A DNA stretch of 63,824 bases, the filler included, from Chrysochromulina tobinii (Eukaryota), in assembly GCA_001275005.1 (NCBI GenBank). It is 6 parts of 6 records of this genome, joined end to end, with 100 filler letters (N's around TTAATTAATTAA, not from the genome) between each part and the next. Parts side by side here need not be neighbours in the genome. Positions count along the whole stretch, not along the records: positions 38,694 to 55,781 come from JWZX01001175.1; 5 more parts are not named here. One strand, 5' to 3'. Position 1 is the stretch's first letter. Each line of letters begins with the position of its first letter. The position numbers and the translations under genes are program-made. Shown here piece after piece: positions 6,070-55,781 of this stretch. Below the pieces are notes generated by a model. It did no database searches. It saw only the letters and a list, made by a program, of their open reading frames with translations, and was not told the DNA's origin.

Positions 6070-6700
6070 GCTGAAGACGCAGTCGCGGACGATTTCATTC
6101 AAGCTGACGAATTCAATGTGAATTCACACACACGCACGGCGAGACAGTGAACAGAAATACCGAACTAACAATGAGACACATGCAGAATTCACACCAAAGA
6201 ATACAGGACTCTCCAATTTGAGACACAAATGCAGGCGGAGCGAGCTTAATCATTCACAACACCAACACAAGTGAACGCAGCATGACGCGGAAAGAATCGA
6301 AAAAAATCGTTTCTTCTCGAATTATGCGTGTCATCCTTGCGCAGGGGCCTGTGACCGTGAAATCGACCGCGTCTTGGTGAGCATGAATACAAGCATTTGA
6401 AATCAGCAGATTCGAGTATCGAGCGAGCTTCACCATGCTAATCTTCTCTGTATCGTTCCAAGTTTAATGGATGCTCCGAAGAGTCCAAAACAGTTATAAT
6501 TTGATGTGGCATATAAATGCTGCAGCACCCGAGCACCCCGCGGCCGGTCGACCTCAATGGTTCCCTTCAACCGCATCCGACTGAAAGAAAATATCAAGAG
6601 ATATTCGCGGCACTGTATCCTCCCCCTCTTCAGCACCTCCCGTCTTTTTCCTCCCCCGCCGCGTGTTTCATGTCGTGTTTCCCTCATTAATGCTCTCTCA

Positions 6701-38693: not shown

Positions 38694-39442
38694 CTGCGGA
38701 CGAGACGGCGCATGATTTTCGCCGACACAAGAGCGCCACGGAAGAGGCCTTTGCCGAGCTCGTCTGCCCCATCACCTTCTCGCTCCCCGTCGACCCCGTC
38801 ATGGCGGAGGACGGCAAGGTGTACGAGCGCTCGGCCATCGAGGAGTGGCTCAAGCAGCAGCACAAGAGCCCGGTGACGAACTTGGCGATGGGCACGAAGC
38901 TGCTGCCGGCGCTGCAGGTCAAGAACATGATCCGCACGATGGTCGCCTCGGGCGCTCTCACGGGCGACAAGGTGGACGCGTGGAAGCTGAAGCTGGAGGA
39001 GGAGGAGGAGGTGGCGGAGTGGCTGCGTGAGGCCGAGGCTGGTGAGGGCTTCGCGATGTACAACCTGGGAGTTTGTTACGAGCGTGGTCAGAAGGGCCTC
39101 GCCAAGGACTTGGCCAAGGCTTTCGAGTGGTACAAGAAGAGCCACGAGGCTGGGTATGAAACTGGGACTGGCGGCCTTGGCTGGTGCTACTTGCATGGGG
39201 AGGGCGTGCCAAAGTGCCCCATGCTTGGCGCTACGCTGATGAGCGACGCCGCCGCACGCGGCAGCAAAAACGCGTGCATCTATCTGGGATGCGCATACGC
39301 TGGTGGCCTCTGTGGCTTCCCGAAGGACGAGAAGATGGCGCGCCGCTACTACTCGATGATGGCGAGCGCCGCGATCGATGATTGCTCCGACGACGCAAAG
39401 GAGAAAGCAGCCACGTGGCTGCGTGCGCATGCAGCAGCTTGA
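38694..39442 (+). CDS. U-box + SEL1-repeat protein, copy 1 (first few codons lost at the contig start)
   Basis: LVCPITFSLPVDPVMAEDGKVYERSAIEEWL...SPVTN is a U-box. AMYNLGVCYERG..GLAKDLAKAFEWYKKS is SEL1. Confidence 0.9.
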
Positions 39443-39691
39443 CTCGGTGCGTTGGCACGTTTGAGTGCTGCGCTGGGTATGGGGGAGAGGGGTTGTAGTT
39501 TGATTGCAGTGGCTGTGAGCTCATGGCTTGTGAGCTAGCTCATGGCTCGGTGCCCTCTCTGTGTGCATCCTCTCGCTCTGAGTGCGTAGAGTATTGCGGA
39601 GAGGTGTGAGAACGGCACCAGCCACCGAAACAGACCTATCCCTGCCTATCCTGGGGCAACGGGTGTGTGAACGTCTCTCCCTCAACGTTCG

Positions 39692-40468
39692 ATGCCGCCC
39701 AAGCGCGGCCGCCGCGCTGCTGCGGACGAGACGGCGCATGATTTTCGCCGACACAAGAGCGCCACGGAAGAGGCCTTTGCCGAGCTCGTCTGCCCCATCA
39801 CCTTCTCGCTCCCCGTCGACCCCGTCATGGCGGAGGACGGCAAGGTGTACGAGCGCTCGGCCATCGAGGAGTGGCTCAAGCAGCAGCACAAGAGCCCGGT
39901 GACGAACTTGGCGATGGGCACGAAGCTGCTGCCAGCGCTGCGGGTCAAGAACATGATCCGCGCGATGGTCACCTCGGGCACTCTCACGGGTGACAAGGTG
40001 GACGCGTGGAAGCTGAAGCTGGAGGAGGAGGAGAAGGTGGCGGAGACGCTGCGTGAGGCCGAGGCTGGCGATGGCGCGGCGATGTGCGTCCTGGGGAATT
40101 GGTACTGGCGTGGTATGAAAGGCCTCGCGAAGGATTTTGCCAAGGCTTTCGAGTGGCTCAAGAAGAGCCACGAGGCTGGGTTTGCAAGTGGGACTTGCGG
40201 CCTTGGAGCGTGCTACGTGCTGGGTCGTGGCGTGCCAAAGTGCCTTGTGCGTGGTGCTACGCTGCTGATGGACGCCGCCGCACGCGGCAGCAAACGCGCG
40301 TGCTACAACCTGGGAGACGCATACGCTGATGGCATCTGGGGCTTCCCGGAGGACGAGACGATGGCGCGCCGCTACTACTCGATGGTGGCGAGCGCCTCGA
40401 TCGATGATTGCATCGACGCTTACAAAGAGGAAGCAGCCACATGGCTGCGTGAGCATGCAGCAGCTTGA
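39692..40468 (+). CDS. U-box + SEL1-repeat protein, copy 2
   Basis: Tandem paralog 1026 bp downstream with the same U-box and three SEL1-like repeats. Confidence 0.92.
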   Translation: MPPKRGRRAAADETAHDFRRHKSATEEAFAELVCPITFSLPVDPVMAEDGKVYERSAIEEWLKQQHKSPVTNLAMGTKLLPALRVKNMIRAMVTSGTLTGDKVDAWKLKLEEEEKVAETLREAEAGDGAAMCVLGNWYWRGMKGLAKDFAKAFEWLKKSHEAGFASGTCGLGACYVLGRGVPKCLVRGATLLMDAAARGSKRACYNLGDAYADGIWGFPEDETMARRYYSMVASASIDDCIDAYKEEAATWLREHAAA

Positions 40469-40755
40469 CTCGGCTTTGGCGCGTTTGAGTGCTGCGCTGG
40501 ATGCGGCTCAGTGGCAAGCGAGCAAGCAAACTACCATGCCGTGGTGGCTACCGGTGTATTGCCGTGTGTACCATGCGGGGCATGCGTCGATGCGATGGTA
40601 CGCCGGGGTGTGCGGATGTTTCGATTGATTAGCTTGCTAGTTGTGTTCTGAGCTGACCTTTGATCGCGTGTGTTTCATGGACCTCTGAAACGCACTGTGT
40701 GTGGGTGAATTGTGTGTGTGGCCCAATTAACCGCCTTCCCGGCCAACTCCGCGGG

Positions 40756-43700
40756 ATGCCACGCCGCCGTCGGCAGACCACACGGTACCAATATGTGCAG
40801 GACTGCCTGACGCTGGCCCTCAATGAGGCTGTCAGTCGAGAAAACGACTCGACGCGCGACATCTTGACCAGCATGGGCCATCGGCTGATCGCAATGGCAG
40901 CGACGGCACCGAGCGAGGCGGTAGCTTTTCCACCAGCCCATGGAGACGACGAGCCGGTGCTCTTTGAGCGTGCACCCGCGCCTGCGGCTGGCCAACGGCG
41001 GCTCTCGCCACATGCGTCTGCCGAGCCGACCACGGCAGCGCAGTGGCTGGCCGAGCAGAACGTAGCCGATGCCGTGGCCCGATGCATCCTGGACCCGGGC
41101 GCACCGAACGACCTGGCGTCGCTGCGGCAGCTGGCCGGCCGCCCCGAGGTGCGCAGCACGCTTGTCGCGCGCCTGCAGGCGGGCGCGGGCGCATTGGCAG
41201 CAGCTCTGTTGCCCGCCCTCGCTGCGCTCGCTACGGCGGGGGCGGCGGCGCCGTCGGCGGCGGCCTTGGAGCTGCTGAGCTGTGGGGAGTCGGAGCTGCT
41301 GGGCTGTGCGGAGTCGGGCGCAGCCATGGACGCGGCCCGCTTGCACGGCAACACGACGGAGTATCCCATGATTCTCGTCGTGGGCGCCATCAACGTGGAT
41401 GTCACTGCGCATGTACGCTACGAGCGCATCGATTGATTGCCATTGATTGGCACTGATGGCGTCGCTCATCAACGTGGACGTCACTGCACGTTTACGCGGT
41501 ACACTGGACGCTACGAGCGCATCGACTGATTGCCATTGATTGGCACTGATGGCGTGCCTGATGGCCTCGCTCATCAGGTACGCGGTGCACTGGACGCTAC
41601 GAGAGCATCAACGGTCGTCGGTTCGGATGAGCCGCCTTCATTTACGCAGGTGATTGCATGCTGATTGCATACCGATTGCATGCTGATTGCCTCCCTCATC
41701 GACGGTCGTCGGTTCGGATGAGCCGCCTTCTTTTACGCAGGTGATTGCTTGCCCTCTGAGGACCTTTGATGTCCTCTGATGGCCTCTGATGACCTCTGAT
41801 GACCTCTGATGATGACCTCTGATGATGACCTCTGATGACCTCTGATGACCTCTGATGACGCAGGGCGGGCGAGGCTTCAATCAAGCAGTCGCCTGTGCGC
41901 GACTAGGCACGAGGACCCAGCTCGTAGCGCTCATTGGGAACGATGTGCTTGCTAGGCGGGTCATCGAGGATAGGTGAGTGCATGTGATTGCCTGTGCTTG
42001 CTAGGCGGGTCATCGAGGATAGGTGAGTGCATGTGATTGCCTGTGGATTGCATGTGATTGGGAATGATCGCATGCTTTTGCAAGGCGGGTCGTCGAGGAC
42101 AGGTGATGGTCTCTGGTTGTACCTGTCAGTGCCTCTGAGCGCCTCGGAGTGCCTCTAATGGCCTCTAATGGCCTCGGAGTGCCCCGGAATGCCTCTAATG
42201 GCCTCGGAGTGCCTCTAATGGCCTCTATGGCCTTTGAGGGCCTCTATGGCCTTTGAGGGCCTCTAATGGCCTCTAATGGCCTCGGAATGCCTCTAATGGC
42301 CTCTATGGCCTCGGAATGCCTCTAATGGCCTTTGAGTGCCTCGGAGTGCCCTGCTTTCTGCCAACGGCTACTGACCGGTGCTCGCTTTCCCTTGCTCGCT
42401 GAGGATGCAGCCTGAGCGCAGTCGCTCTCTTGATGCCACTCGATGTAACGTCTGTGCTGCGCGCCGAGCAGCCGGAGGCGAAGACGGGCCTCTCTGTCAT
42501 CCTTCGGTGATTGCATCTCTGATGTCCTCCCTGATTGCATCTCTGATCGCATCTCTGATTGCATCTCTGATGGCATCTCTGATTGCATCTCTGCTCGCAT
42601 CTCTGATGGCATCTCTGATGGCCTCTCTGATGGCCTCCCCGGATGCAGGTGCGTCGAAGGTCCTGGCAAAGGGCAGACGCTCTCCGTGCCGTGCCTGGGC
42701 GCGAACATGTTGATGGGCGAGCGGGAGGTGGCGGTTGCATGCAAGCTGATCGATGGGCCGATGGGTGGTGGCATTGCATGCGAGCTTTTGGATGTGAGTC
42801 GTCCAACCGTCGCTCGGCACGGCGCTGTCGCCCGGCACGGCGCTGTTGCATGCGAGCTTTTGGATGTGAGTCGTCCGACCGTTCCGCTCCAACCGTCGCT
42901 CGGCACGGCGCTGTCGCCCGGCACGGCGCTATCGCCCGGCACGGCGCTGTCGCCCCTGACCCTCAGCCAACCCCGCCCTGACCGTTTGGGTCCAGACCAC
43001 CGCGGTCATCAACGGCACTCAGACGCAATCAAGAACACTCAGTGGCCAGCCGAGTGGTCGGAGCGGGGTTTCGTCAAGGGCACTCCGGGCTCGGGGTTCG
43101 TCAAGGGCACTCCGGGCTCGGGTTTCGTCGGGCAGGTGCTGCTGCAGCTCGAGATCCCGATCTCGGTCAACCGTCGCGTCGCCCGGTACGGCGCCGAGCG
43201 CGGCTGCTTCGTGGGCGTGAAGAGCTCGCCGTTGGATGCGGAGGGGGCTGCGGAATTGCGCTCGCTGCTTGCCGATGGGACCGTGCATCTGCTCATGATG
43301 GCGGGCTTTGAAGCACAGGTGCGGGGTGGTTGCGGGCTGATGAACGGATGATTACACGCTGCGATTACCGGCTAATTACCGGTGGTAATTGGCATGAATG
43401 GACCATGATTGCAATCCATGTTATCTGCGCGCCCGCGACGGCGCGACGTCACGCGCTGTTCCGGGCGCTCCGGCTCCCGCGCGAGCGCCCTGCATGCAAG
43501 TGCTTACCACAGCGCCCGCCTCTCCCCACAGGTGCTGCTCCGGCTCGCGCGCGCGCCCGCGGTCGTCGCGGATGCAGATGCGGCGGCCTCGCGCCTCTTT
43601 GACGAATTCCCGTCGCTCTGTGCTGTCGTCATCTCGTTACCGGTACGACCAGGAGCTGATTGCCTCTTGATGACCTCTGATGACACCTAATTGCCTCCCT

Positions 43701-46700
43701 CCTCAGGGCATCGCCGTCGTCGCGCGCTACAGCGCAGACACTCTCTCCACTGCGGTCGCGGAGCAGCACTCGGGGCGCTGTCAGACCAAATTAGGCAGCT
43801 CCGGTGCCGAGTCTACCAAATTAGGCAGCTCCGGTGTCGAGTCTACCAAATTAGGCAGCTCCGGTGCCGAGTCTACCAAATTAGGCAGCTCCGGTGCCGA
43901 GTCTACCAAATTAGGCAGCTCCGGTGCCGAGTCTACCAAATTAGGCAGCTCCGGTGCCGAGTCTGTGGACGCGGCGGCGGCGCTCGCTGTGCCCGCGACG
44001 ACGCGTACCAAAGTGACGAATCTGATCGTACTGCCGGCGCGGAAGCTGCATTACACCAAACTGGACGACCGCGCTTTCCACAGTGAGAGCGCGCGAATGA
44101 CCTCTGAGGACCACCTCGGATACCTCTGATGACCTCTGATGGCCTCGGATGGCCTCGGATGGCCTCGAATATCCTCTGATGACCTCTGATGGCCTCCCTC
44201 ATCAGGTAAGAGTGCCCCCTCAGCGAGCGGAGCGGCCGATGCGTTCTGTGCGGGCTTCATGGCAGCCCTCGGTCGACGGCTGAGTGTTCGTCAGGCGCTG
44301 TTCTGGGCGTACGTTACGGGGCAGCTGAGTGCGCTCCAGCCGTGCACCCAACTCGAGGGCAGCTTGGATGACATTGAAGAATTGGTACGTCTCTGATGGG
44401 CGCTGATGGGCGCGTATGGCCTCTGATGACCTCTGATGGCCTCTGATGGCTTCTGACGGCCTCTGATGGCAACTGATGCCTCTGAGTGCGTCGGCCATCA
44501 GGATGACCTTGAGTAGACATTGAAGAGTTGGTTCGTCTAGAGCTCTGTGACGATTTCGTCCGCCGAGTGCCGCTGTGATCACTGATGACAGGCGATTGCC
44601 CTCCCTCATCAGGCGCGTCTCGAGCTCTGATGACCTCTGATGATCACTAATGACCCATAACTGCCTCCCTCATCAGGCGCGTCTCGAGCTCAGCGCCGAG
44701 ATCGAGGTGGAGGGTCCGCTATTCCGTCCACTGAGCGCCGATGAGGAGTCGCTCCCAGGGCCCTTCCGAGCAACCACGTACTTCGTGCCTCTGATTACGT
44801 CTCGGATTGCGCCTCTGATTACGCCTAGGATCACTTCTGATGAGCGCTGATTGCCCCATTCATCAGGTACTTGCGCCAGACTCCGCTCCACCTCTCGCTG
44901 CTCTCCGCACGTCCCTCGCGCCTCCCAAAGCTCTTTGTGCGTGGGCACTCGTTGGGGCACACGGGGGGCGGCGCGCACCATCTCGGCCATAATCTGAGCC
45001 ACAATCTCGGCCATAATCTCGGCCACTCATCTGCCGACCAGCTGCTGCGCACCATGGCGCCGGAGCAGCTTGCATGCATGGTCAATGTGGAGGACTCGTT
45101 TGGGTTCAATCCGTTACAGCGCGTGCACGACATGCATCAGCACACGCGCAAGGACACTGTAGAGCGCAAGCTCACGCGCCACATGCTTGATTGGTGCGCG
45201 GATGACCTCTGATGACCACATGCTTGATTGGTGTGCTGATGACCTCTAATGACCTCGAATGACCTCGAAGGGCTCACACGATGGACCGCACTGATGATCT
45301 TCCTCATCAGGCTGCTCGCGGCGCATGCATTGCTCGCCGCCACCCAAAACGGGGCTGACGCCAACCGCGGCAACCCGCTTCTGACGCTCTCGCGCCCGGC
45401 CGGGCTGCATCGAGCGCGCTCGCAATCTCGGCTACAATCTCGGTCGATTGCGGCGCGAGAGCCGGCGCGAGGCGCGTGGCAGCAGGTGTGGATCTCGAAC
45501 GATCTCTCACGATCTCGCACGATCTCGCACGATGTCGCATGATGTCGCATGATCTCGCACGATCTCGCACGATCTTTGATGGCCTCTGATGACCTCTGAT
45601 GACCTCTGATGATCCTTGATGACCTCTGTTGACCTCTGATGGCCATCGATGGCCTCGGATTGCCTCGCTCATCAGGTGTGGCTCTCGATCGCTGCCTCCG
45701 CCGTCCCCTCCGAAGATGACCTCTGATTGCATGCTGATTGCCTCCCTCATCAGGTGTGGCTCTCGATCGCTGCCTCCGCCGTCCCCTCCGAAGATGACCT
45801 CTGATTGCATGCTGATGGCCTCCCTCATCAGGTGTGGCTCTCGATCGCTGCCTCCGCCGTCCCCTCCGAAGAGATCTTTCGTCAATCGATGGCGGTCATC
45901 CAACAGGTCGATAGCGGCAAGGAGGTGCGTCTCCTTCTGATGAGCCGCTCGAAGACCTCTGATGACCTCTGAGGGCGTCTGATTGGCTCTCTCATCAGGT
46001 GCCACTCAACGTGGAGGAGGCGACTGCTTCGCTCGCCACCATGGTCGTCGTCTCCATTCTGGACGACGCGAGCCGACGACACCGCGAGCGGCGCGAAAAG
46101 GCGAGCGGCCGAGAGCGCGGCTCGTTCCGCAAGTCGGAGGAGGTGACGAAACTCGAGCTCGAGAGCTCGGCCTCTGATTGCACTCTGATGGCTCTCTGAT
46201 GGCACTCTGATTGCACTCTGATTGTACTCTGATTGCACTCTGATTGCACTCTGATTGCACTCTGATTGTACTCTGATTGCCTCCCGCATCATCTTGCAGG
46301 TGACGAAACTCGAGCTCGAGCTGCTCGAGATGAGCTCCGAGTTCGAGGCGGCCGAGCTCGCGGAGATTAATCTCGTCGAGGCCTTCTGTGCGCCCGTACT
46401 CACCGCGTCCCTCAAGCCTCCTTCGCCGCCGCCAACACCACCGCCGAACGCCTTCGCGTCGACGCCCGCCACGACGCCCGCCACGGCGCCCACGACGGCG
46501 GCGATGTCGACGTTCTGCCGCTGCCTGCTCGAGTGCCGGGACCCGTTCGATGGACGAAACTTGCTCCTGCTTGCATGCGGCGCGGGGTCGTCACTGCTCG
46601 TCGACTTGCTGCTCACGCACGGAGAGCGAAGCCGCGGTGCGTTCAATTGCATGCTGATTGCCTCCCTCTTCAACGCACGGAGAGCGAAGCCGCGGTGCGT

Positions 46701-49700
46701 TCAATTGCATGCTGATTGCCTCCCTCATCAACGCACGGAGAGCGAAGCCGCGGTGCGTTCAATTGCATGCTGATTGCCTCACTCATCAGGTGCTCAGATA
46801 CACCCAGGCTGAGTGCATGCTGATTGCATCCCTCATCAGGTGTGTTCATTGACGTGCATGCTCGGACACACGCGGGGGAGACGGCGCTGCATCTCGCCGC
46901 TGCCTCCGGCCACTTCGATATCTGCAAGATGCTGCTGCAGCGGACGGGGCTGCAACTGAAAGGTCCAGCCGGAATCGATTGCACGCGATGACGCCCCTCC
47001 AATTGGCGCCTCTGATTGCATGCTGATGGCCTCCCTCATCAGGTCCAGCCGCGGAATCGATCCATGCGACGACGCCCCTCCAATTGACGCCTCTGATTGC
47101 ATGCTGATGGCCTCCCTCATCAGGTCCAGCCGCGGAATCGATCCATGCGACGACGCCCCTCCAGTTGGCGGGAACGGCAATGCATTGGCAAGTGGCGCTC
47201 CAGATGAGTGCATTCGTGTGCGGACCGTTCGAAAACCCTCTGGGAGCCCTGATGACGAACGCAATCCAAGAGGGGCTTCAACGGCGGCTCAACATGCCCG
47301 ATGACGAAGCCGGAAGCCGTTGGAAGGTTCGAGGCACCGCTCGCGTCGCGAGTGTCGCTGGGGTGATGGGGCGTGAGTTCCGCGGGCCTTCGTTCACAGG
47401 TGCGCGCAGGGGAGGCGCACGCTGTGATTGCCTCCGATTGCGCTTAGAGTAGGCGCGTGATGACCTGTGATTGCCTCCGATTGCGCGTAGAGGAGGCGCA
47501 TGATGACCTGTGATTGCCTCCGATTGCGCTTAGAGTAGGCGCATGATGACCTGTGATTGCCTCCAATTGCGCGTAGAGGAGGCGCATGATGACCTGTGAT
47601 TGCCTCCGATTGCCATCGATGTTGCCTCGCTGCTGACCTGTGCGGACCTTCGTTCACACGTTGTGCATACGTTGTTCACAGTGATGCCCGAGCAACTCGA
47701 GCGCATCCGCCAGCAAGTGGCCTCTTCGGCGACTCTCCTCGTCCTCTTGAGCAACGCGCTGCTGAGCGAGCCCACAGCGCTGGTGACCGTCTGATTGCGA
47801 CTGATTCGCTATCTGATTGCGACTGATTCGCTATCTGATTGCGACTGATTAGCATCGGATTGCGACTGAGTTTCCTCTGATGAGCACTGATGGCCTCCCT
47901 CATCAGGTGGCCGAGCTCAAGATGACCTCTGATTGCCTCTTGATGGCCTCTGATTATCCTCTGATGAGCACTGATGGCCTCCCTCATCAGGTGGCCCTCG
48001 TGGCGGCGTTTGATCTCTGATTGCCTCTTGATTGCCTCTGATTGCCTCTGATGAGCACTGATGGCCTCCCTCATCAGGTGGCCCTCGTGGCGGCGTATGA
48101 TCTCGGCAAGGCAATCGTCGGGCTGCGCGTGGATGCCGTCGATGGAGTGCCCGCCGAGGCGCTCGCTTATGACGAGGAGGTCGCCACGACGGCGCTCCAT
48201 AACCTGGCAGCGTACCTGACAAGGAAGCACCCCGATGTCCTGGCGGCGATGGAAGCGAGCGGCCTCGATGTCGCCGACATGGGGCGCAAGTGTTTGAACG
48301 TGGCGCGAAACCTCAAGGCGCGAAACATCGTCCATGTGCCCAACGCGACGCTCACGCCAGATGCGAGCTCGAGCGCCGTATCGGGCAGCTCCGCTCCTCG
48401 CGGCCCACGGGTGCTCCTTGAGGTCTCGTCATCAGAGGTTTCGTCATCCGAGGTTTCGTCATCCGAGGCGCTCCGAGGCGCTCCGAGATACTCCGAGGTT
48501 TCGTCATCAGAGGTTTCGTCATCAGAGGTTTCGTCATCCGAGGCACTCCGAGGCGCTCCGAGATACTCCGAGGCACTCCGCACTCGATGGGTGCTTGATG
48601 ACGAAACTCTGCGAGCGATCGAGGGCGGTCTCGAGGACGCCGAGATTTTGGCCGCGATCTCGAACGAAGCTCGCGCTCGCCTCGTGATTCGAAAGCATCT
48701 CGCGCAGCGGATCGCCGCGGGGCGCACCCGGACACGGATGCAGCTCAAGAGCCGCACAGCGCGTCTCCATCGCCTGAAGCGCGTCGCCGATGGGCGCGAT
48801 GCGGAGGTGCCTCAACTGGGCAGGTTGCCTAGCATGGACGATGCGGAGCCGCCCTCGCCCGACGAGATGCGATCTCCGCCCGACGAGATGCGATCTCGCG
48901 CGCTCAGATATCACCTGTGCCTCTCGCACCAGTGGCGGTTCGGGCAGGACGTGGCGCGTGCCATCAAGCTGCGCCTGCCCGACTTCGTGCCAAACATCCA
49001 GATCTGCGTGGAGCTCGATAAGGAGCGATCTGCGGATGCGCTGCGCGACTCGATCGACGTCTCCCTTACGGTCGTCGTGCTGATCTCAGATGGCTACTTT
49101 GCGAGCATCGGGTGAGTGCCTCTGATGGCCTCTGATGGCCTCTGTTCACCTCTGAGTACCTCTGATGAGCATCGGGTGAGTGCCTCTGAATGACCTCTGA
49201 TGAGCATCTGGTGAGTGCCTCTAATGACATCTGATGGTCGCTGATGATGTGTTTTCCTCATCAGTTGCACGCGAGAGCTGCTCCGCGCCTTCTGATGACA
49301 CCTGATGACACCTGATGACACCTGATGACACCTGATGACACCTGATGACCTCTGATGACCTCTGATGACCTCTGATGACCTCTGATTGCCTCCCTCATCA
49401 GGTGCACGCGAGAGCTGCTCCGCGCCATTTGGCTTCGAAAGCCGCTCGTGACGTTGATCGATCCGCAAATCGATCGCGCTGAGCTGAGCGCTGCCCAGAT
49501 TCGTCACCAGATCGAGCTCAATCGAGCTCAATGGGAGCTGTGGGGAATCGCTGACGAGATGCGAGCGTGGGGCATGACCCAACTCCCCACAGCCTCGGAA
49601 GTCTTCGAGGCGCTTTTCCCCACAGATGGATCGCGCCCACCCCTCGAATGGGAACGGCTCACACCGTACCAGGTGACATCTCGCTTGAGTGTCTCTTGAT

Positions 49701-52700
49701 TGCCTCTTGATCGCCTCTTGATTGCCTATCGATTGCCGTTCGAATGGGAACGGTTCACACCTACCAGGTGTGCTCATGGCCTCTGATGACCTCTGATGAT
49801 CCTTGATGATCTCTGATGACCTCTGATGACCTCTGATGACCTCTGATGACCTCTGATGACCTCTGATGATCTCGGATGACCTCTGATGGCCTCTGATGGC
49901 CTCTGACCTCGCGGCTCGCCCCGTTCCTAATTAGGACCACACGCTGCGTCTGCTCGTCGAGTCTGTGCTACCGGTCGACCAGACGCCCACGCGGCTCCAA
50001 AGCGAACTCTCACCCGACGAGCAGGTCACGTTGCCCCTGATGACCTCTGATGACCTCCCTCATTAGGTCGCGTGGCCCGCGCTCCGACGGGGCTTCCTTC
50101 CACAGCCCTGATGACCTCTGATGACCTCCCTCTGATGACCTCCCTCATTAGGTCGCGTGGCCCGCGCTCCGGCGGGGCTTCTTCCACGTCTACGCAAGCC
50201 GCCACTGCCCGGGCTCGTTCGATCTCATGATCGAGCTCGCGCGAGCTCATCAGAGATCTCGGATCGCCTCGGCAGTCAGTGATGGCAATGCCGCGGTCCT
50301 CTCCTCCTCTGCACTTGATGATGGGATTGCGGTCATTAGAGGTCATCAGAGGTCATCAGAGGATGGGATTGCGGGCGGCGTCGAGGGTCACCTCTTTGTG
50401 GCAGGCGAGATGCGATCCCTGCAGACCGCGCAGCCCATGCTGACGCCCATGCTGACGCCCGGGACGGCGCCCGGGACGGCGCCCGGCACGGCGCCGCACC
50501 GTCCCTCGGAGATGCTCCACGTGACGAGTGACGAAACCCTCTTACCAAAGTGCTCGCATATGCTCGTGTACGTGCTTGCATGCTTGCCGCTGGATTGCTC
50601 TTGTTGATTGCTCCTGGATTGCTCCTGGATTGCTCCTGGATTGCTCCTGGATTGCTTTTTTATACCTCTGAGGAACTCCAATTGGCTCCTTCATTACCTC
50701 TGAGGAGCTCCAATTGGCTCCCTCATTACCTCTGAGGAACTCCAATTGGCTCCCTCATCAGGTACCTGACCGCCGAGACGTGGACACACGACACCGCCGC
50801 CTTCCTAATCGAGCTCACCCGAGCTCGGCAGCTGGGATTGCATCTGCTGCTTGTGCACGAGGTGCCACGTGTCTCTGATTGCATCTGCTGCTTGTGCACG
50901 AGGTGCCACGTGTCTCTGATTGCATCTCTGATGTCCTCCCTGATGACATGCTGATTGCCTCCCTCATCAGGTGCCCCGCGTCGAGCTGCCCGGCCCGCCC
51001 GACGAGCGCGCGCCCGCGGCGGCGCCTTACCTGATGGCATGCTGATTGCCTCCCTCATCAGGTGCCCCGCGTCGAGCTGCCCGGCCCGCCCGACGAGCGC
51101 GCGCCCGCGGCGGCGCCTTTTGAGGCGATCGTGGCCGCGGCGCCTAGCGAGGCCGTGCACGCGGGGTGGCTCTCCTCAATTACGGTGCCACTCAAGCCGG
51201 CGCCGTACCGGTACTCGAGCATGCTTCTCCTTACGCAGGTGGGTTGCATGCTGATTGCATGATGATTGCCTCCCTCATGGACAGTCGGCGCCGTACCGGT
51301 ACTCGAGCATGCTTCTCCTTACGCAGGTGGGTTGCATGCTGATTGCGTGATGATTGTATTCCTCATGGACGGTCGGCGCCGTACCGGTACTCGTGCATGC
51401 TTCTCCTTACGCAGGTGGGTTGCCAAATATGGCAGCACTCACGTCTGATGACCTCGGATGACCTCCGATGACCTCCGATGACCTCTGATGACCTCTGATG
51501 ACCTCTGATGACCTCTGGTGACCTCTGATGACCTCTGGTGACCTCTGATGACCTCTGATGATCGCCGATTGCCTGAGTAGGCTATCATCGACTATGCCCT
51601 CCCAGTGCGCCTACGCCCTGTCGAGTTGGCCAACGTCGTCGCGGCCGCGACGGGCATCGGGGAAGCGGCGCGTCTGCCCTCGAGCCAGCGCCAAAGTCCA
51701 TCGGCCCCTGGCACACCTAATTTGGGTCCATCGGCCCCTGGCACACCTAATTTGGGTCCATCGGCCCCTGGCACACCTAATTTGGGTCCGGACCAGTTGC
51801 GGTCAGAGGCACTCACACACGAAATGGCCTCGGACACTGGCTCGCCTGGCGGCAAGGGGATCGAGGAGGGAGATTCCGAGGGCGCGCTCTCAATCTCCGA
51901 GCGCGCAGATGCAATCTCCGAGGGCGCACTCTCAATCTCCGAGCGCGCAGATGCAATCTCCGAGGGCGCGCTCTCAATCTCCGAGCGCGCAGATGCGCGC
52001 GAGCTGCTGCTCGCGCCTTCGACCACGCACGAGGAAGGCGAGGCATCCATATTAGGCAATACCACGCACGAGGAAGGCGAGGCATCCAAATTAGGTAACC
52101 GCTCGTCCGTGCGCGCGCGACAGTGCAGTGAGGAGACTATCCTTTCGAGCGAGCAGCCGGGAAATCTTTTCCCACAGCCATCGTTTGCGTCGGAGACGAG
52201 TGACTACAGCCATCAAGTGCCCGACGAGCGTGCCTCCACAACGGCGCCCGGTGAGCGGGTGCCTCTATGGATGCTCTCAGCCTCGCACAAGTCCATGCAG
52301 GTGCGAGATGTCGATCTGAGATGTCGATCTGAGATGACGACCTGATATGACGATCTGAGATGACGATCTGAGGGCCTTGGATCGCTAGAGTTTCGTCGAT
52401 CTGGGATGTCGATCTGAGGGTTATGGATCGCCCGAGTTTCCCTTGAGGCATCATGATGCGACACCGAGATTGACACCGAGATTGACACCGAGATTGACAC
52501 CGAGATTGACACCGAGATTGACACTGAGATTGACACCGAGATTGACACCGAGGACTGACACCGAGATTGCCATCATCGGAGGCACCATGATGCCACACCT
52601 TGATCGCCTCTGATGGCCTGTGATTGCCATTGAGGCCCCTTGATTGCCACGGATGGACATGAGACGTAACGACTTTCCTCATGATTGCCACTGATTGATG

Positions 52701-53201
52701 TGAGACGTCACGACTCTCCTCATGATTGCCACGGATGGACATGAGACGTAACGACTCTCCTCATGATTGCCACTGATTGATGTGAGACGTAACGACTCTC
52801 CTCATGATTGCGACTGATGGACATGAGGCGTAACGACTCGCTCCTCATTGTCCCTCGCGCCCGGCACAGCGCGTGATGGTGGCTGTGGCCGACTACCGAG
52901 CGCAGGCGAAGGCAGCGCGAGAGTTCTACCGAAGTGCGAGCCATACGGAGCAACCCTCAGTGCCGTTGTCCCCGGGTGGCTCTGCATGCAAGTGCTCACC
53001 ACGGCGCCACCCCTCCCCACAGGTGCGAGCCACGAGGAGCAACCCTCAGTGCCGTTGTCCCCTAGTGGCTTCGTGGCGCCGCCCCCACTCCTATCCTTAA
53101 CCGACCGCTCGAGGGGCTCGTCGTCCTCCCGCTCGTGCCGGCTTGGCGAACGTCAAGACTCGCGCGAGTCCTCTGACCCGTCGGAGCCCACGTCGTTTTG
53201 A
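40756..53201 (+). CDS. Large multi-exon (over 20 introns) PfkB/ribokinase-like + ankyrin + multiple TIR-like domain protein
   Basis: PfkB motifs ILVVGAINVD, GGRGFNQAVACARLG, GAN, VLLQLEIP, SGAADAFCAGF. Ankyrins QTPLHL, GETALHLAAASGHFDICKMLL, TTPLQLA. TIR YHLCLSHQW...DGYFASIG|CTRELLRA. Second TIR-like HMLV|YLTAETW...IELTRA...LLLVHE. In-frame GT-AG joins traced for the junctions from 44206 to the stop; some earlier junctions are less certain. Confidence 0.7.
41414..53022 (+). mobile_element. Cluster of introner-like introns: duplicated exon start + decamer repeats (GATGACCTCT-type) + conserved acceptor tail
   Basis: Over 20 occurrences of CC(C/T)TCAT(C/T)AG-type acceptors preceded by CTGATTGC or CTGATGAC repeats, often with a copy of the following exon at the intron 5' end. 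Confidence 0.7.
43787..43964 (+). repeat. Exonic 30-bp minisatellite (TKLGSSGAES x6)
   Basis: ACCAAATTAGGCAGCTCCGGTGCCGAGTCT tandem, in frame. Confidence 0.9.
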
Positions 53202-54103: not shown

Positions 54104-55781
54104 CTATGCGCGGGTGACTTGAGTGTGCGCGCTGAAGGTTGATGGGTGGACGACGGTGGATGATGGGATCGTGATCGACGCGAGCGATTTGCAGCGCACA
54201 AAGGCACCGTCACCAATCTGCGTCACCGACGCGGGGAGCGTGATCGACGCGAGCGAGGTGCAGTTACGAAAGGTGTCCTCACCAATCTGCGTCACCGACG
54301 CGGGGAGCGCGATCGACGCGAGCGAGGTGCAGTCACGAAAGGCGCGCTCACCAATCTGCGTCACCGACGCGGGGAGCGTGATCGACGCGAGCGAGGTGCA
54401 TTCTTCAAAGGCGCTCCCACCAATCTGCGTCACCGACGCGGGGAGCGTGATCGACGCGAGCGAGGTGCAGCCCTTAAAGGCGCGCCCACCAATCTGCGTC
54501 ACCGACGCGGGGAGCGTGATCGACGCGAGCGAGGTGCAGTCCCAAAAGGCGCCCTCACCAATCTGCGTCACCGACGCGGGGAGCGTGATCGACGCGAGCG
54601 AGATGCAGCCGAAAAAGGCGCGCTCACCAATCTGCGTCATCGACGCGGGGAGGTCCGCGACCGACTTGAGCAACTTGCACTCTCGCATCGTGAGCTTTCG
54701 CAGCGCCATCAGCCTCGCCACAGACGCCGGCAGCGCCTCCCCCTTCCACTTCCCGCGCAGATTCAGCCCGCACACGCGCCCCTCCTTGTCCGCCGAGAAC
54801 GCCCTGCCGAGCCCGTCCCGGCCGCCCACCACCCCCGCCAGCCACTCGGGATCCTCCAGGATCCACGCGTCCTCAGACGCCCCGATGAGCTCCAGAGCCA
54901 TAAAGGTGACTTGAGTGTGCTCGTCGAAGGCCAATGGGTCGACGAGGGTCGCCGATGGGATCGTGATCGACGAAAGCGAGGTGCAGCTGCAAAAGGCGCG
55001 CTCACCAATCTGCGTTACCGACTCGGGGATCGTGATCGACGCGAGCGAAGTGCAGGCGAGAAAGGCCTCCTTACCAATCTGCGTCACCGACTCGGGGAGC
55101 GTGATCGACGCGAGCGATTTGCACTTGTAAAAGGTGAACGCACCAATCTGCGTCACCGACTCGGGGAGCGTGATCGACGCGAGCGAGGCGCAGCCCTGAA
55201 AGGCGCGCTCACCTATCTGCTTCACTGACGCGGGGAGCGTGATCGACGCGAGCGAGGCGCAGCCCTGAAAGGCGTACCCACCAATCTGCGTCACCGACGC
55301 GGGGAGCGTGATCGACGCGAGCGAGGTGCAGCCCCGAAAGGTGTGCTCACCAATCTGCGTCACCGACGCGGGGAGCGTGATCGACGCGAGCGAGATGCAT
55401 TCGCAAAAGGCGCTCCCACCAATCTGCGTCACCGACGCGGGGAGCGTGATCGACGCGAGCGAGGTGCAGCCCCGAAAGGCGTGCTCACCAATCTGCGTCA
55501 CCGACGCGGGGATCGTGATCGACGCGAGCGAGATGCAGTTGTAAAAGGCGCTCTCACCAATCTGCGTCACCGACGCGGGGATCGTGATCGTCGCGAGCAA
55601 GGTGCAGTCGCGAAAGGCTTGATTATCAATCTGCGTCACCGACGTGGGGAGCGTGATCGACACGAGCGACGTGCAGTTTTGCATCTTGAGCTTTCGCAGC
55701 GCCGTCAGCCTCGCCACAGACGCCGGCAGCGCCTCCCCCTTCCACTTCCCGCGCAGCTCCAGCCCGACCACGCGCCCCTCC
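54104..55781 (-). CDS. BspA/TpLRR (LRR_5) protein with two duplicated modules, 5' truncated
   Basis: 23-aa repeats C.SLASITLPASVTQIG..AF.. (69-bp DNA units). Cap GL.LRGKWKGEALPASVARL.ALRKL occurs twice. Confidence 0.92.

What the first reader, a model, noticed from the sequence alone, without database searches (positions are those of the whole stretch)
41414..51600. Second tail family (...TGCATGCTGATTGCCTCCCTCATCAG with GATGACCTCT-type decamer runs) riddles one gene with over 20 introns
Seen: most introns in the PfkB-ANK-TIR gene end in CCTCCCTCATCAG or a close variant, preceded by variable-number decamers (GATGACCTCT, GATTGCACTCT, AATGGCCTCT, GATTGCATCTCT). Many begin with a copy of the next exon, e.g. 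GTGACGAAACTCGAGCTCGAG at 46143 and 46300, or GTCCAGCCG... at 46962, 47043 and 47124. The repeats supply CTGA(T/C) branch-like motifs and follow the sense strand of the host gene; a related minus-strand intron is at 29186-29311. Inference: variable copy number of a short unit resembles reiterative, telomerase-like synthesis from a short template. Housekeeping contig 1 lacks these tails, so the process appears regionally targeted.
Basis: partly seen in the sequence, partly recalled or inferred. Interest (0 to 1): 0.85.

Follow-up and report, generated by a model that had tools for sequence, protein, structure and literature searches.

The report
Introns built from duplicated exon starts
In a haptophyte alga of the Chrysochromulina group, many spliced introns across the genome consist of a copy of the next exon's first 10-55 bases plus a shared repeat tail that carries the splice acceptor, likely made by a repair-type copying event that would create or rebuild introns without a transposase.

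Summary
A hand-built model gives 26 introns and one open 2,210-codon frame; RNA contigs splice 14 of the 24 introns in range. Fifteen of 24 end in the tail or a close variant; 7 end in it exactly. Intron starts resemble their own next exon far above permutation (117/240 against 69±7). In other loci, 55 of 133 tails have such an echo against 0.15% of permuted pairs. Echo plus tail mostly totals 65-93 nt. Hosts include housekeeping genes, and a second, decamer-free tail family shows the same anatomy. Clustering follows the gene and its sense strand, not the region. Telomerase-like synthesis is not supported: there are 228 unit variants, and copy number varies between alleles. Most likely, template-switch repair duplicates the target and patches in another intron's 3' end; an RNA template is the main rival. 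Gain is indicated at one prolyl-tRNA synthetase site, and re-building of a shared intron at another. I found no description in the searchable papers or in this scan's earlier findings.

The parts
40756..53200 (+). Host gene (PfkB-like, ankyrin, TIR-like), 27 exons, about 2,200 codons; hand-built model
   Evidence: RNA joints
41413..41577 (+). intron 1: short echo of next exon, internal junction copy, tail variant
   Evidence: predicted, no RNA joint seen
41650..41863 (+). intron 2: repeats from the donor on; last 6 nt copy the upstream exon end
   Evidence: RNA joint
41974..42410 (+). intron 3: repeat-filled, no tail; the RNA joint maps to the second copy of a perfect 49-bp donor duplication
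42507..42648 (+). intron 4: 12-mer variant array
   Evidence: RNA joint
42728..43135 (+). intron 5: no decamer repeats
   Evidence: predicted
43319..43531 (+). intron 6: second tail family preceded by a copy of the next exon
   Evidence: predicted
43643..43706 (+). intron 7: 64 nt, tail variant
   Evidence: predicted
44083..44205 (+). intron 8: echo 7/10, decamers, exact tail
   Evidence: RNA
44385..44676 (+). intron 9: echo, internal tail+exon-start copy, exact tail
   Evidence: RNA
44778..44866 (+). intron 10: echo, tail variant; unspliced in a DNA contig
   Evidence: RNA; DNA
45194..45310 (+). intron 11: tail variant; unspliced in a DNA contig
   Evidence: RNA and DNA pieces
45486..45831 (+). 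intron 12: echo 9/10, 78-bp tail+exon-start tandem, exact tail
   Evidence: predicted
45925..45998 (+). intron 13: 74 nt, tail variant
   Evidence: predicted
46143..46299 (+). intron 14: exact 21-nt echo plus 11-mer array
   Evidence: RNA pieces
46637..46839 (+). intron 15: echo 7/10, 58-bp tandem, tail variant
   Evidence: RNA
46963..47123 (+). intron 16: 81-bp echo+tail unit twice, exact tail
   Evidence: RNA
47400..47681 (+). intron 17: mirror type, last 8 nt copy the upstream exon end
   Evidence: RNA
47783..48077 (+). intron 18: exact tail; holds a tail+15-nt chunk also found in an unrelated gene (L101/L111)
   Evidence: RNA
48420..48578 (-). antisense repeat block kept in frame inside exon 19; unit number varies between alleles
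   Evidence: exon contiguous in RNA
49112..49401 (+). intron 19: exact tail
   Evidence: RNA
49673..49934 (+). intron 20: long decamer array, different 3' end
   Evidence: RNA
50025..50151 (+). intron 21: echo 8/10, tail variant
   Evidence: predicted
50331..50362 (-). antisense decamer block in predicted exon 22, flanked by a 13-nt direct repeat, in frame
50568..50761 (+). intron 22: tail variant
   Evidence: predicted
50862..51061 (+). intron 23: echo 8/10, 91-bp tandem, exact tail
   Evidence: predicted
51239..51580 (+). intron 24: 88-bp copies of the upstream junction plus decamer array
   Evidence: predicted
52301..52869 (+). intron 25: other 12-13-mer and 41-bp repeats
   Evidence: predicted
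52934..53022 (+). intron 26: 48-nt echo plus second-family tail, 89 nt (in-frame alternative to the 52976 start)
   Evidence: predicted
29186..29311 (-). related repeat-filled intron candidate in another gene, without the tail
   Evidence: not RNA-tested

Best explanation
These are spliced introns made of a duplicated piece of the neighbouring exon plus a shared acceptor-bearing tail, likely produced when a repairing DNA polymerase switches template, copies the 3' end of an existing intron and resumes 10-55 nt back in the target. Shown: the anatomy, the splicing, the sense orientation and the spread over many genes. Inferred: (1) The duplicated exon piece supplies the GT donor and the copied tail supplies branch point and AG, so the mRNA is unchanged; in a mirror form the repeats supply the donor and a copied exon end supplies the AG. 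(2) Selection keeps only events that splice out exactly and reach about 65 nt or more, which would explain the 65-93 nt lengths and part of the strand bias. (3) Each survivor is a donor for the next, more often within the same gene, so some genes fill up with introns. (4) Afterwards slippage changes decamer number, and unequal exchange between the direct repeats multiplies or removes whole units. The process probably both creates introns at empty sites and rebuilds introns at old sites.
For: Echo: 117/240 matches against 68.8±6.7 in the window gene; 55 of 133 tails against 0.15% permuted in other loci. Of 39 first echoes with repeat-free upstream sequence, 28 follow in-frame coding sequence directly; echo length 10-55 nt. 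Spliced database proteins agree with the downstream boundaries at L036, L018 and L014. Of 28 single-unit introns, 23 are 65-93 nt, with echo against tail length rho -0.64 (one 269-nt case excluded). A second family without decamers has echo scores of 15 or more in 19 of 31 scored copies (no permutation control, some are tandem copies). Tails of different introns in one locus are more alike than shuffled pairs (53 pairs in 19 loci, P=0.007). Signs of DNA-level copying in either orientation: an antisense decamer block with a 13-nt direct repeat in predicted exon 22, an inverted copy of a nearby exon plus tails inside an L113 intron whose resident exon has no intron at that site, and a foreign tail+15-nt chunk shared by two unrelated genes. 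Gain: the ProRS site KRQ|VR is read through in ORFs of relatives at 77-84% identity, one on a 591-kb contig and one whose ends look intron-derived.
Against: Orientation is nearly absolute (142:1; no antisense block in 5.8 kb of this gene's introns), more than random DNA repair predicts unless antisense copies are purged or donors are local. 78 of 129 tails had no echo at the threshold, and junction microhomology of 2 nt or more was seen in only 6 of 28. The ProRS site WYQQ|VI has a nearly perfect echo, yet an 84%-identical relative breaks at the same codon, so that event was not a simple gain. No empty allele was found among the listed members of six 90% clusters or 13 exon-19 variants, and the in-house empty-site search returned none. 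Echo length is underestimated when diverged, which inflates the length correlation.
Confidence: 0.5

Rival explanations
1. RNA-templated version: a nick in the template strand of a transcribed gene primes copying of the 3' end of an intron RNA (TPRT-like, or RT template switching between transcripts), giving a 5'-truncated, 3'-precise, sense-only insert with a long variable target-site duplication.
For: Fixed 3' end and variable 5' end; 142:1 sense bias; clustering by transcription unit; within-gene tail similarity; none seen in 51 kb of the window outside this gene.
Against: Antisense and inverted products exist. No RT domain in 135 sense ORFs near tails (a small sample, one strand only). Mirror-type introns lack the fixed 3' end.
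Confidence: 0.25
2. Overwrite of old introns: aborted intron loss, in which copying from spliced cDNA replaces the 5' part of an existing intron with exon sequence while tails are homogenised by conversion; no net gain.
For: ProRS site 1 is shared with an 84% relative although its echo is nearly perfect; near-constant intron length; introns shared by all listed alleles.
Against: ProRS site 2 is read through in relatives; an exonic antisense insert with a direct repeat needs no prior intron; by eye, introns fall at different positions in different filamin repeats of one gene; 26 introns against about one per gene on average in C. tobin (PMC4580454).
Confidence: 0.12
3. A conventional non-autonomous transposon (introner, MITE or SINE) mobilised in trans.
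For: Dispersed shared sequence; introners are reported in marine Chrysochromulina MAGs and E. huxleyi (PMC9860276); the tail end is a 6-8-nt reverse complement of the decamer.
Against: No fixed 5' end, terminal inverted repeats or fixed duplication length (10-55 nt, against 3-9 bp quoted for introners); hairpin no better than shuffles in 5 of 5 folds; two unrelated tails behave alike.
Confidence: 0.07
4. Telomerase-like reiterative synthesis from a short RNA template.
For: Period 10 in 617 of 914 repeat steps; variable copy number.
Against: 228 unit variants; copy number varies among alleles at one site and between the window and a DNA contig (44 nt in intron 14); a decamer-free family exists; no Rfam match above threshold.
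Confidence: 0.04
5. Ancestral 3' splice consensus plus ordinary slippage.
For: The tail is a serviceable branch point and acceptor; tandem copies of tail+exon start are common.
Against: Other introns end differently; slippage across an acceptor cannot place the echo at the first base of the intron directly after coding sequence.
Confidence: 0.02

Closest known systems
Intron gain by tandem genomic duplication of an AGGT proto-splice site (reviewed in PMC3443670; passages read)
   Same: A duplicated exon segment supplies splice sites and the coding sequence is unchanged.
   Different: Here a foreign, genome-wide shared tail between the copies usually supplies branch point and acceptor.
[quoted passage not shown]
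   Same: Direct repeats flank an insert, as expected from staggered-break repair.
   Different: The review describes short repeats and inserts resembling mitochondrial rather than nuclear DNA; here repeats are 10-55 nt and inserts are copies of other introns' 3' ends.
Introners (Gozashti et al. 2022, PMC9860276; passages and supplement rows read)
   Same: Many dispersed introns share sequence; a splice site is co-opted from the target duplication; families are listed for Chrysochromulina MAGs and E. huxleyi.
   Different: Their Chrysochromulina example has a 4-bp duplication and carries the 5' site. Here only the 3' 15-60 nt are shared, and the duplication is long and variable.
10-11-bp strand-biased intron repeats of Emiliania huxleyi (Read et al. 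2013; recalled, paper not held)
   Same: About 10-bp repeats in haptophyte introns with strand bias, recalled as proposed to help intron processing.
   Different: As I recall, no exon echo, fixed acceptor tail or link to intron origin was described; I could not check the text or its supplement.
Non-LTR retrotransposon insertion by TPRT (established knowledge)
   Same: Precise 3' end, variable 5' end, variable-length target duplication.
   Different: No poly(A), no parent element or RT found; almost strictly sense to the host gene.

Membership tests
Spliceosomal intron | Removed from RNA at GT..AG, retained in DNA | tested here: met
   14 of 24 spliced in RNA contigs; DNA contigs continuous through introns 10, 11 and 13
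Introner (TE-derived) | Dispersed introns sharing sequence at unrelated loci | tested here: met
   138 stretches returned, about 2,300 estimated in the collection; diverse hosts
Introner (TE-derived) | End-to-end similarity with defined element ends | tested here: not met
   5' part is locus-specific exon copy
Introner (DNA-TE type) | Terminal inverted repeats and short fixed-length duplication | tested here: not met
   duplication 10-55 nt; folding not above shuffles
Introner (TE-derived) | Presence/absence at orthologous sites | tested here: inconclusive
   ProRS site 2 read through in relatives, site 1 shared; L101/L111 differ by two introns but L111 may be RNA-derived
Tandem genomic duplication | Intron begins or ends with a copy of adjacent exon at a splice-like site | tested here: met
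Tandem genomic duplication | Intron consists only of the duplicated segment | tested here: not met
   a shared tail or repeat filler follows the echo
Non-LTR retrotransposon / SINE | Parent element or RT sharing the 3' end | not testable with these tools
   no genome held; no RT in 135 nearby sense ORFs
Telomerase-like addition | One repeat unit from one template | tested here: not met
   228 units in 914 steps; commonest 134
Telomerase-like addition | Template RNA and telomerase- or Penelope-like RT | not testable with these tools
   no genome held

The most novel reading that the evidence does not exclude
A transposase-free, self-propagating 3'-splice-site cassette: the cell's own repair or reverse-transcribing polymerase copies the last 15-60 nt of an intron RNA into a nick in a transcribed gene and duplicates 10-55 nt of exon as the donor. 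Several unrelated tails use this route, creating and rebuilding introns genome-wide in haptophytes and explaining their strand-biased 10-11-bp intron repeats.
Probability: 0.3. Interest if true: 0.9.

Novelty: new variant of a known kind. Interest (0 to 1): 0.72.

Why it matters
How new spliceosomal introns arise is a long-standing question. Bursts of gain are currently credited to transposons, while duplication and break-repair routes rest on scattered cases (PMC3443670; 10.1101/2024.06.04.597373, passages read). Here one anatomy, a long exon duplication plus a recycled acceptor tail, recurs at many loci, in at least two tail families, in an alga related to a cultured and sequenced species. 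Each intron keeps its own record (echo divergence for age, tail variant for donor), so rate, donor choice and template can be tested directly. Searches that need end-to-end intron similarity would likely miss these introns.

Tried and rejected
No whole genome is held and locus handles gave no records, so genome-wide counts, telomere proximity, template RNA and RT were not tested. Viral contigs: 0 matches for two tail patterns. Rfam: only sub-threshold matches, mostly C/D-box, treated as chance. Tail hairpin: z from -0.47 to 1.34, not significant. L101 against L111 differ by two tail-type introns, but L111 could be a partly spliced transcript, so it is not counted as polymorphism. The other seven overlapping locus pairs showed no tail-intron presence/absence. 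The lake run X18 covered only repeats. The joints table was swamped by repeat joins; only its contig pieces were used. Summed depth over tails is not a copy number and was not used as one. The coding model called 111 of 138 downstream segments sense, with 21 of 25 accuracy on this gene's exons; this is compatible with, not proof of, all-sense. The search of 50% representatives never ran, so distant homologs of the host gene were not examined. Literature: 10 searches returned no paper describing this anatomy. Read et al. 2013 is not held; the SI Appendix of PMC9860276 was too large to read, and I saw only the first 32 of 214 Chrysochromulina places in its spreadsheet (all TARA MAGs). A prior description there cannot be excluded. 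Earlier scan findings: nothing bearing.
Full report
Context. The window is six contigs joined by N spacers; the finding lies in the fourth. A housekeeping protein of contig 1 falls in a 90% cluster with a Chrysochromulina parva protein, and host genes of other tail loci cluster with C. tobinii or C. parva proteins. No whole genome is held, so the wider tests use 137 loci from one metagenome scan for the exact tail followed by GT. That sample is chosen by the tail and is 4 of 64 parts of the collection.

Observation. The 13-nt tail occurs 13 times on + and never on -, all within the finding, against 0 in 200 shuffles. A hand-built model with 26 introns gives one open frame of 2,210 codons, with PfkB and ankyrin hits on single exons and a TIR-like segment supported only by ESM-Atlas neighbours (Pfam negative). 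RNA contigs of four runs skip introns 2, 3, 4, 8, 9, 10 and 15-20 at GT..AG (15 of 79 joints shown), and pieces from one run skip introns 11 and 14. DNA contigs run through introns 10, 11 and 13 unspliced. Ten of the 24 introns in range remain predicted. Seven end exactly in the tail and 15 in it or a close variant.

Anatomy. Positions 3-12 of each intron match its own next exon at 117 of 240 positions, against 68.8±6.7 for permuted pairs; the 3' ends match the upstream exon end more weakly (72 against 60.1±4.4, P=0.007). In other loci, 55 of 133 terminal tails have an upstream, GT-anchored copy of the exon start scoring 10 or more, against 0.15% of permuted pairs. Of 129 tails tested with a coding model, 51 had such an echo and 78 did not. 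In 39 the first echo follows repeat-free sequence, and in 28 of these that sequence is best read as coding and in frame with the downstream exon. So the intron itself begins with the copy. Echoes are 10-55 nt. Of 28 single-unit introns 23 measure 65-93 nt, with longer echoes going with shorter tails (rho -0.64), and most multi-unit introns are multiples of about 67-90 nt. Spliced database proteins agree with the downstream boundaries at three loci. A second tail family with no decamers, present in introns 6 and 26 and in other loci, shows an echo of score 15 or more in 19 of 31 scored copies (no permutation control).

Distribution. Pfam hits lie on the tail's strand near 29 of 68 loci tested and include ProRS, the complex I 75-kDa subunit, kinesins, E1, gamma-tubulin complex, a DEAD helicase and a PKS; none is an RT (sense strand only, and some hits may belong to neighbours). 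Repeat blocks within 1.5 kb of a tail are 142 same-strand against 1 opposite. Same-strand density falls from 0.96 to 0.21 per kb with distance while the opposite strand stays at 0-0.05. This fits clustering per gene and not per region. Tails of different introns in one locus are modestly more alike than shuffled pairs (53 pairs, P=0.007), and one tail+15-nt chunk is shared by intron 18 and an unrelated gene, so copying seems both local and distant.

Against telomerase-like synthesis. There are 228 different units among 914 repeat steps. An antisense block inside exon 19 varies in unit number among 13 variant ORFs that all end at the intron-19 donor, which points to slippage after insertion. 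The decamer-free family shows that reiteration is not needed. Folding and Rfam gave nothing significant. A template RNA could not be sought.

Gain or rebuild. In the ProRS locus the second intron (echo plus second-family tail) is read through by ORFs of relatives at 77-84% identity, one on a 591-kb contig, indicating gain here or loss there. The first intron, two 38-nt units with a nearly perfect echo, lies at a codon where the 84% relative's ORF also breaks, while a 77% relative reads through it and breaks about three codons earlier. This indicates rebuilding or repeated gain at one site. ORFs of 93-95% relatives of the complex I gene leave the alignment seven codons before this organism's intron, suggesting labile positions. 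These readings infer introns from gene-caller boundaries. No empty allele was found among close relatives, and L101/L111 is ambiguous. An antisense decamer block with a 13-nt direct repeat sits in frame in predicted exon 22, and an inverted exon-plus-tail copy sits in an L113 intron while the resident exon is empty at that site. Both suggest DNA-level copying that needs no prior intron.

Mechanism. I favour template-switch repair that duplicates the target and patches in the 3' end of an existing intron, filtered by splicing and a minimum length (0.5). An RNA-templated version explains the strand bias better but the antisense products worse (0.25). Overwrite by spliced cDNA (0.12), a conventional non-autonomous element (0.07), telomerase-like synthesis (0.04) and plain consensus (0.02) follow. 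I put the shared core, duplication plus copied tail giving an exactly spliced intron, at about 0.9.

Known work. It works like tandem genomic duplication and break-repair intron gain (PMC3443670; passages and section 9) and spreads like an introner (PMC9860276; passages and supplement rows), but it fails the tests of end-to-end similarity, inverted repeats and short fixed duplication. The C. tobin genome paper mentions only about one intron per gene (PMC4580454; passages). Passages of PMC12480563, PMC10290126 and 10.1101/2024.06.04.597373 did not describe it. Strand-biased 10-11-bp intron repeats in E. huxleyi are recalled from Read et al. 2013, which is not held, so the repeats themselves are probably known; the echo-plus-tail anatomy was not found in ten searches. 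Verdict: real, genome-wide, a new variant of known intron-gain routes; interest 0.72.

Noticed in passing
window 43785-43964, 51696-51789, 52086: A third short motif (CCTAATTTGG or its complement) sits inside exonic tandem duplications of this gene in both orientations, and at an intron 3' end in L114; possibly a third tail family.
   Followed up: partly
window 44976-45026, 45425-45442, 45491-45575, 52460-52569, 31972-32046: ATCTCG/CGAGAT-type 10-12-mer repeats occur in introns and in frame in exons; recalled as resembling Emiliania intron repeats.
   Followed up: no
window 56337-57923 (minus): WD40 repeats of a NACHT-like gene repeat with a 194-bp period, each unit carrying the same intron of about 66-68 nt, of a different type.
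   Followed up: partly
window 38700-40470: Two tandem, intron-less U-box/Sel1-like gene copies lie directly upstream of the intron-rich gene (read by eye).
   Followed up: no
window 54165-55677 (minus): 69-bp repeat array that reads by eye as BspA-type leucine-rich repeats, without introns or tails.
   Followed up: no
window 6301-6437: Stretch that by eye resembles a U6 snRNA gene on the minus strand (recalled resemblance); not scanned.
   Followed up: no
window 41805-41857, 45580-45646, 49338-49387 and others: The decamer contains overlapping C-box and D-box-like words and gives sub-threshold C/D snoRNA matches; treated as chance, binding of a kink-turn protein untested.
   Followed up: partly
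L011 minus strand, about 1610-1780: An intron made almost entirely of tandem copies of the exon echo, close to classical tandem-duplication gain; other filamin repeats of the gene carry introns at other positions or none.
   Followed up: partly
L013, about 2620-2650: The start of one shared intron differs among alleles at 93-100% identity, as seen in translated read-through, suggesting fast intron sequence turnover.
   Followed up: partly
window 62603-63720: Degenerate 118-137-bp tandem array filling most of the last contig.
   Followed up: no
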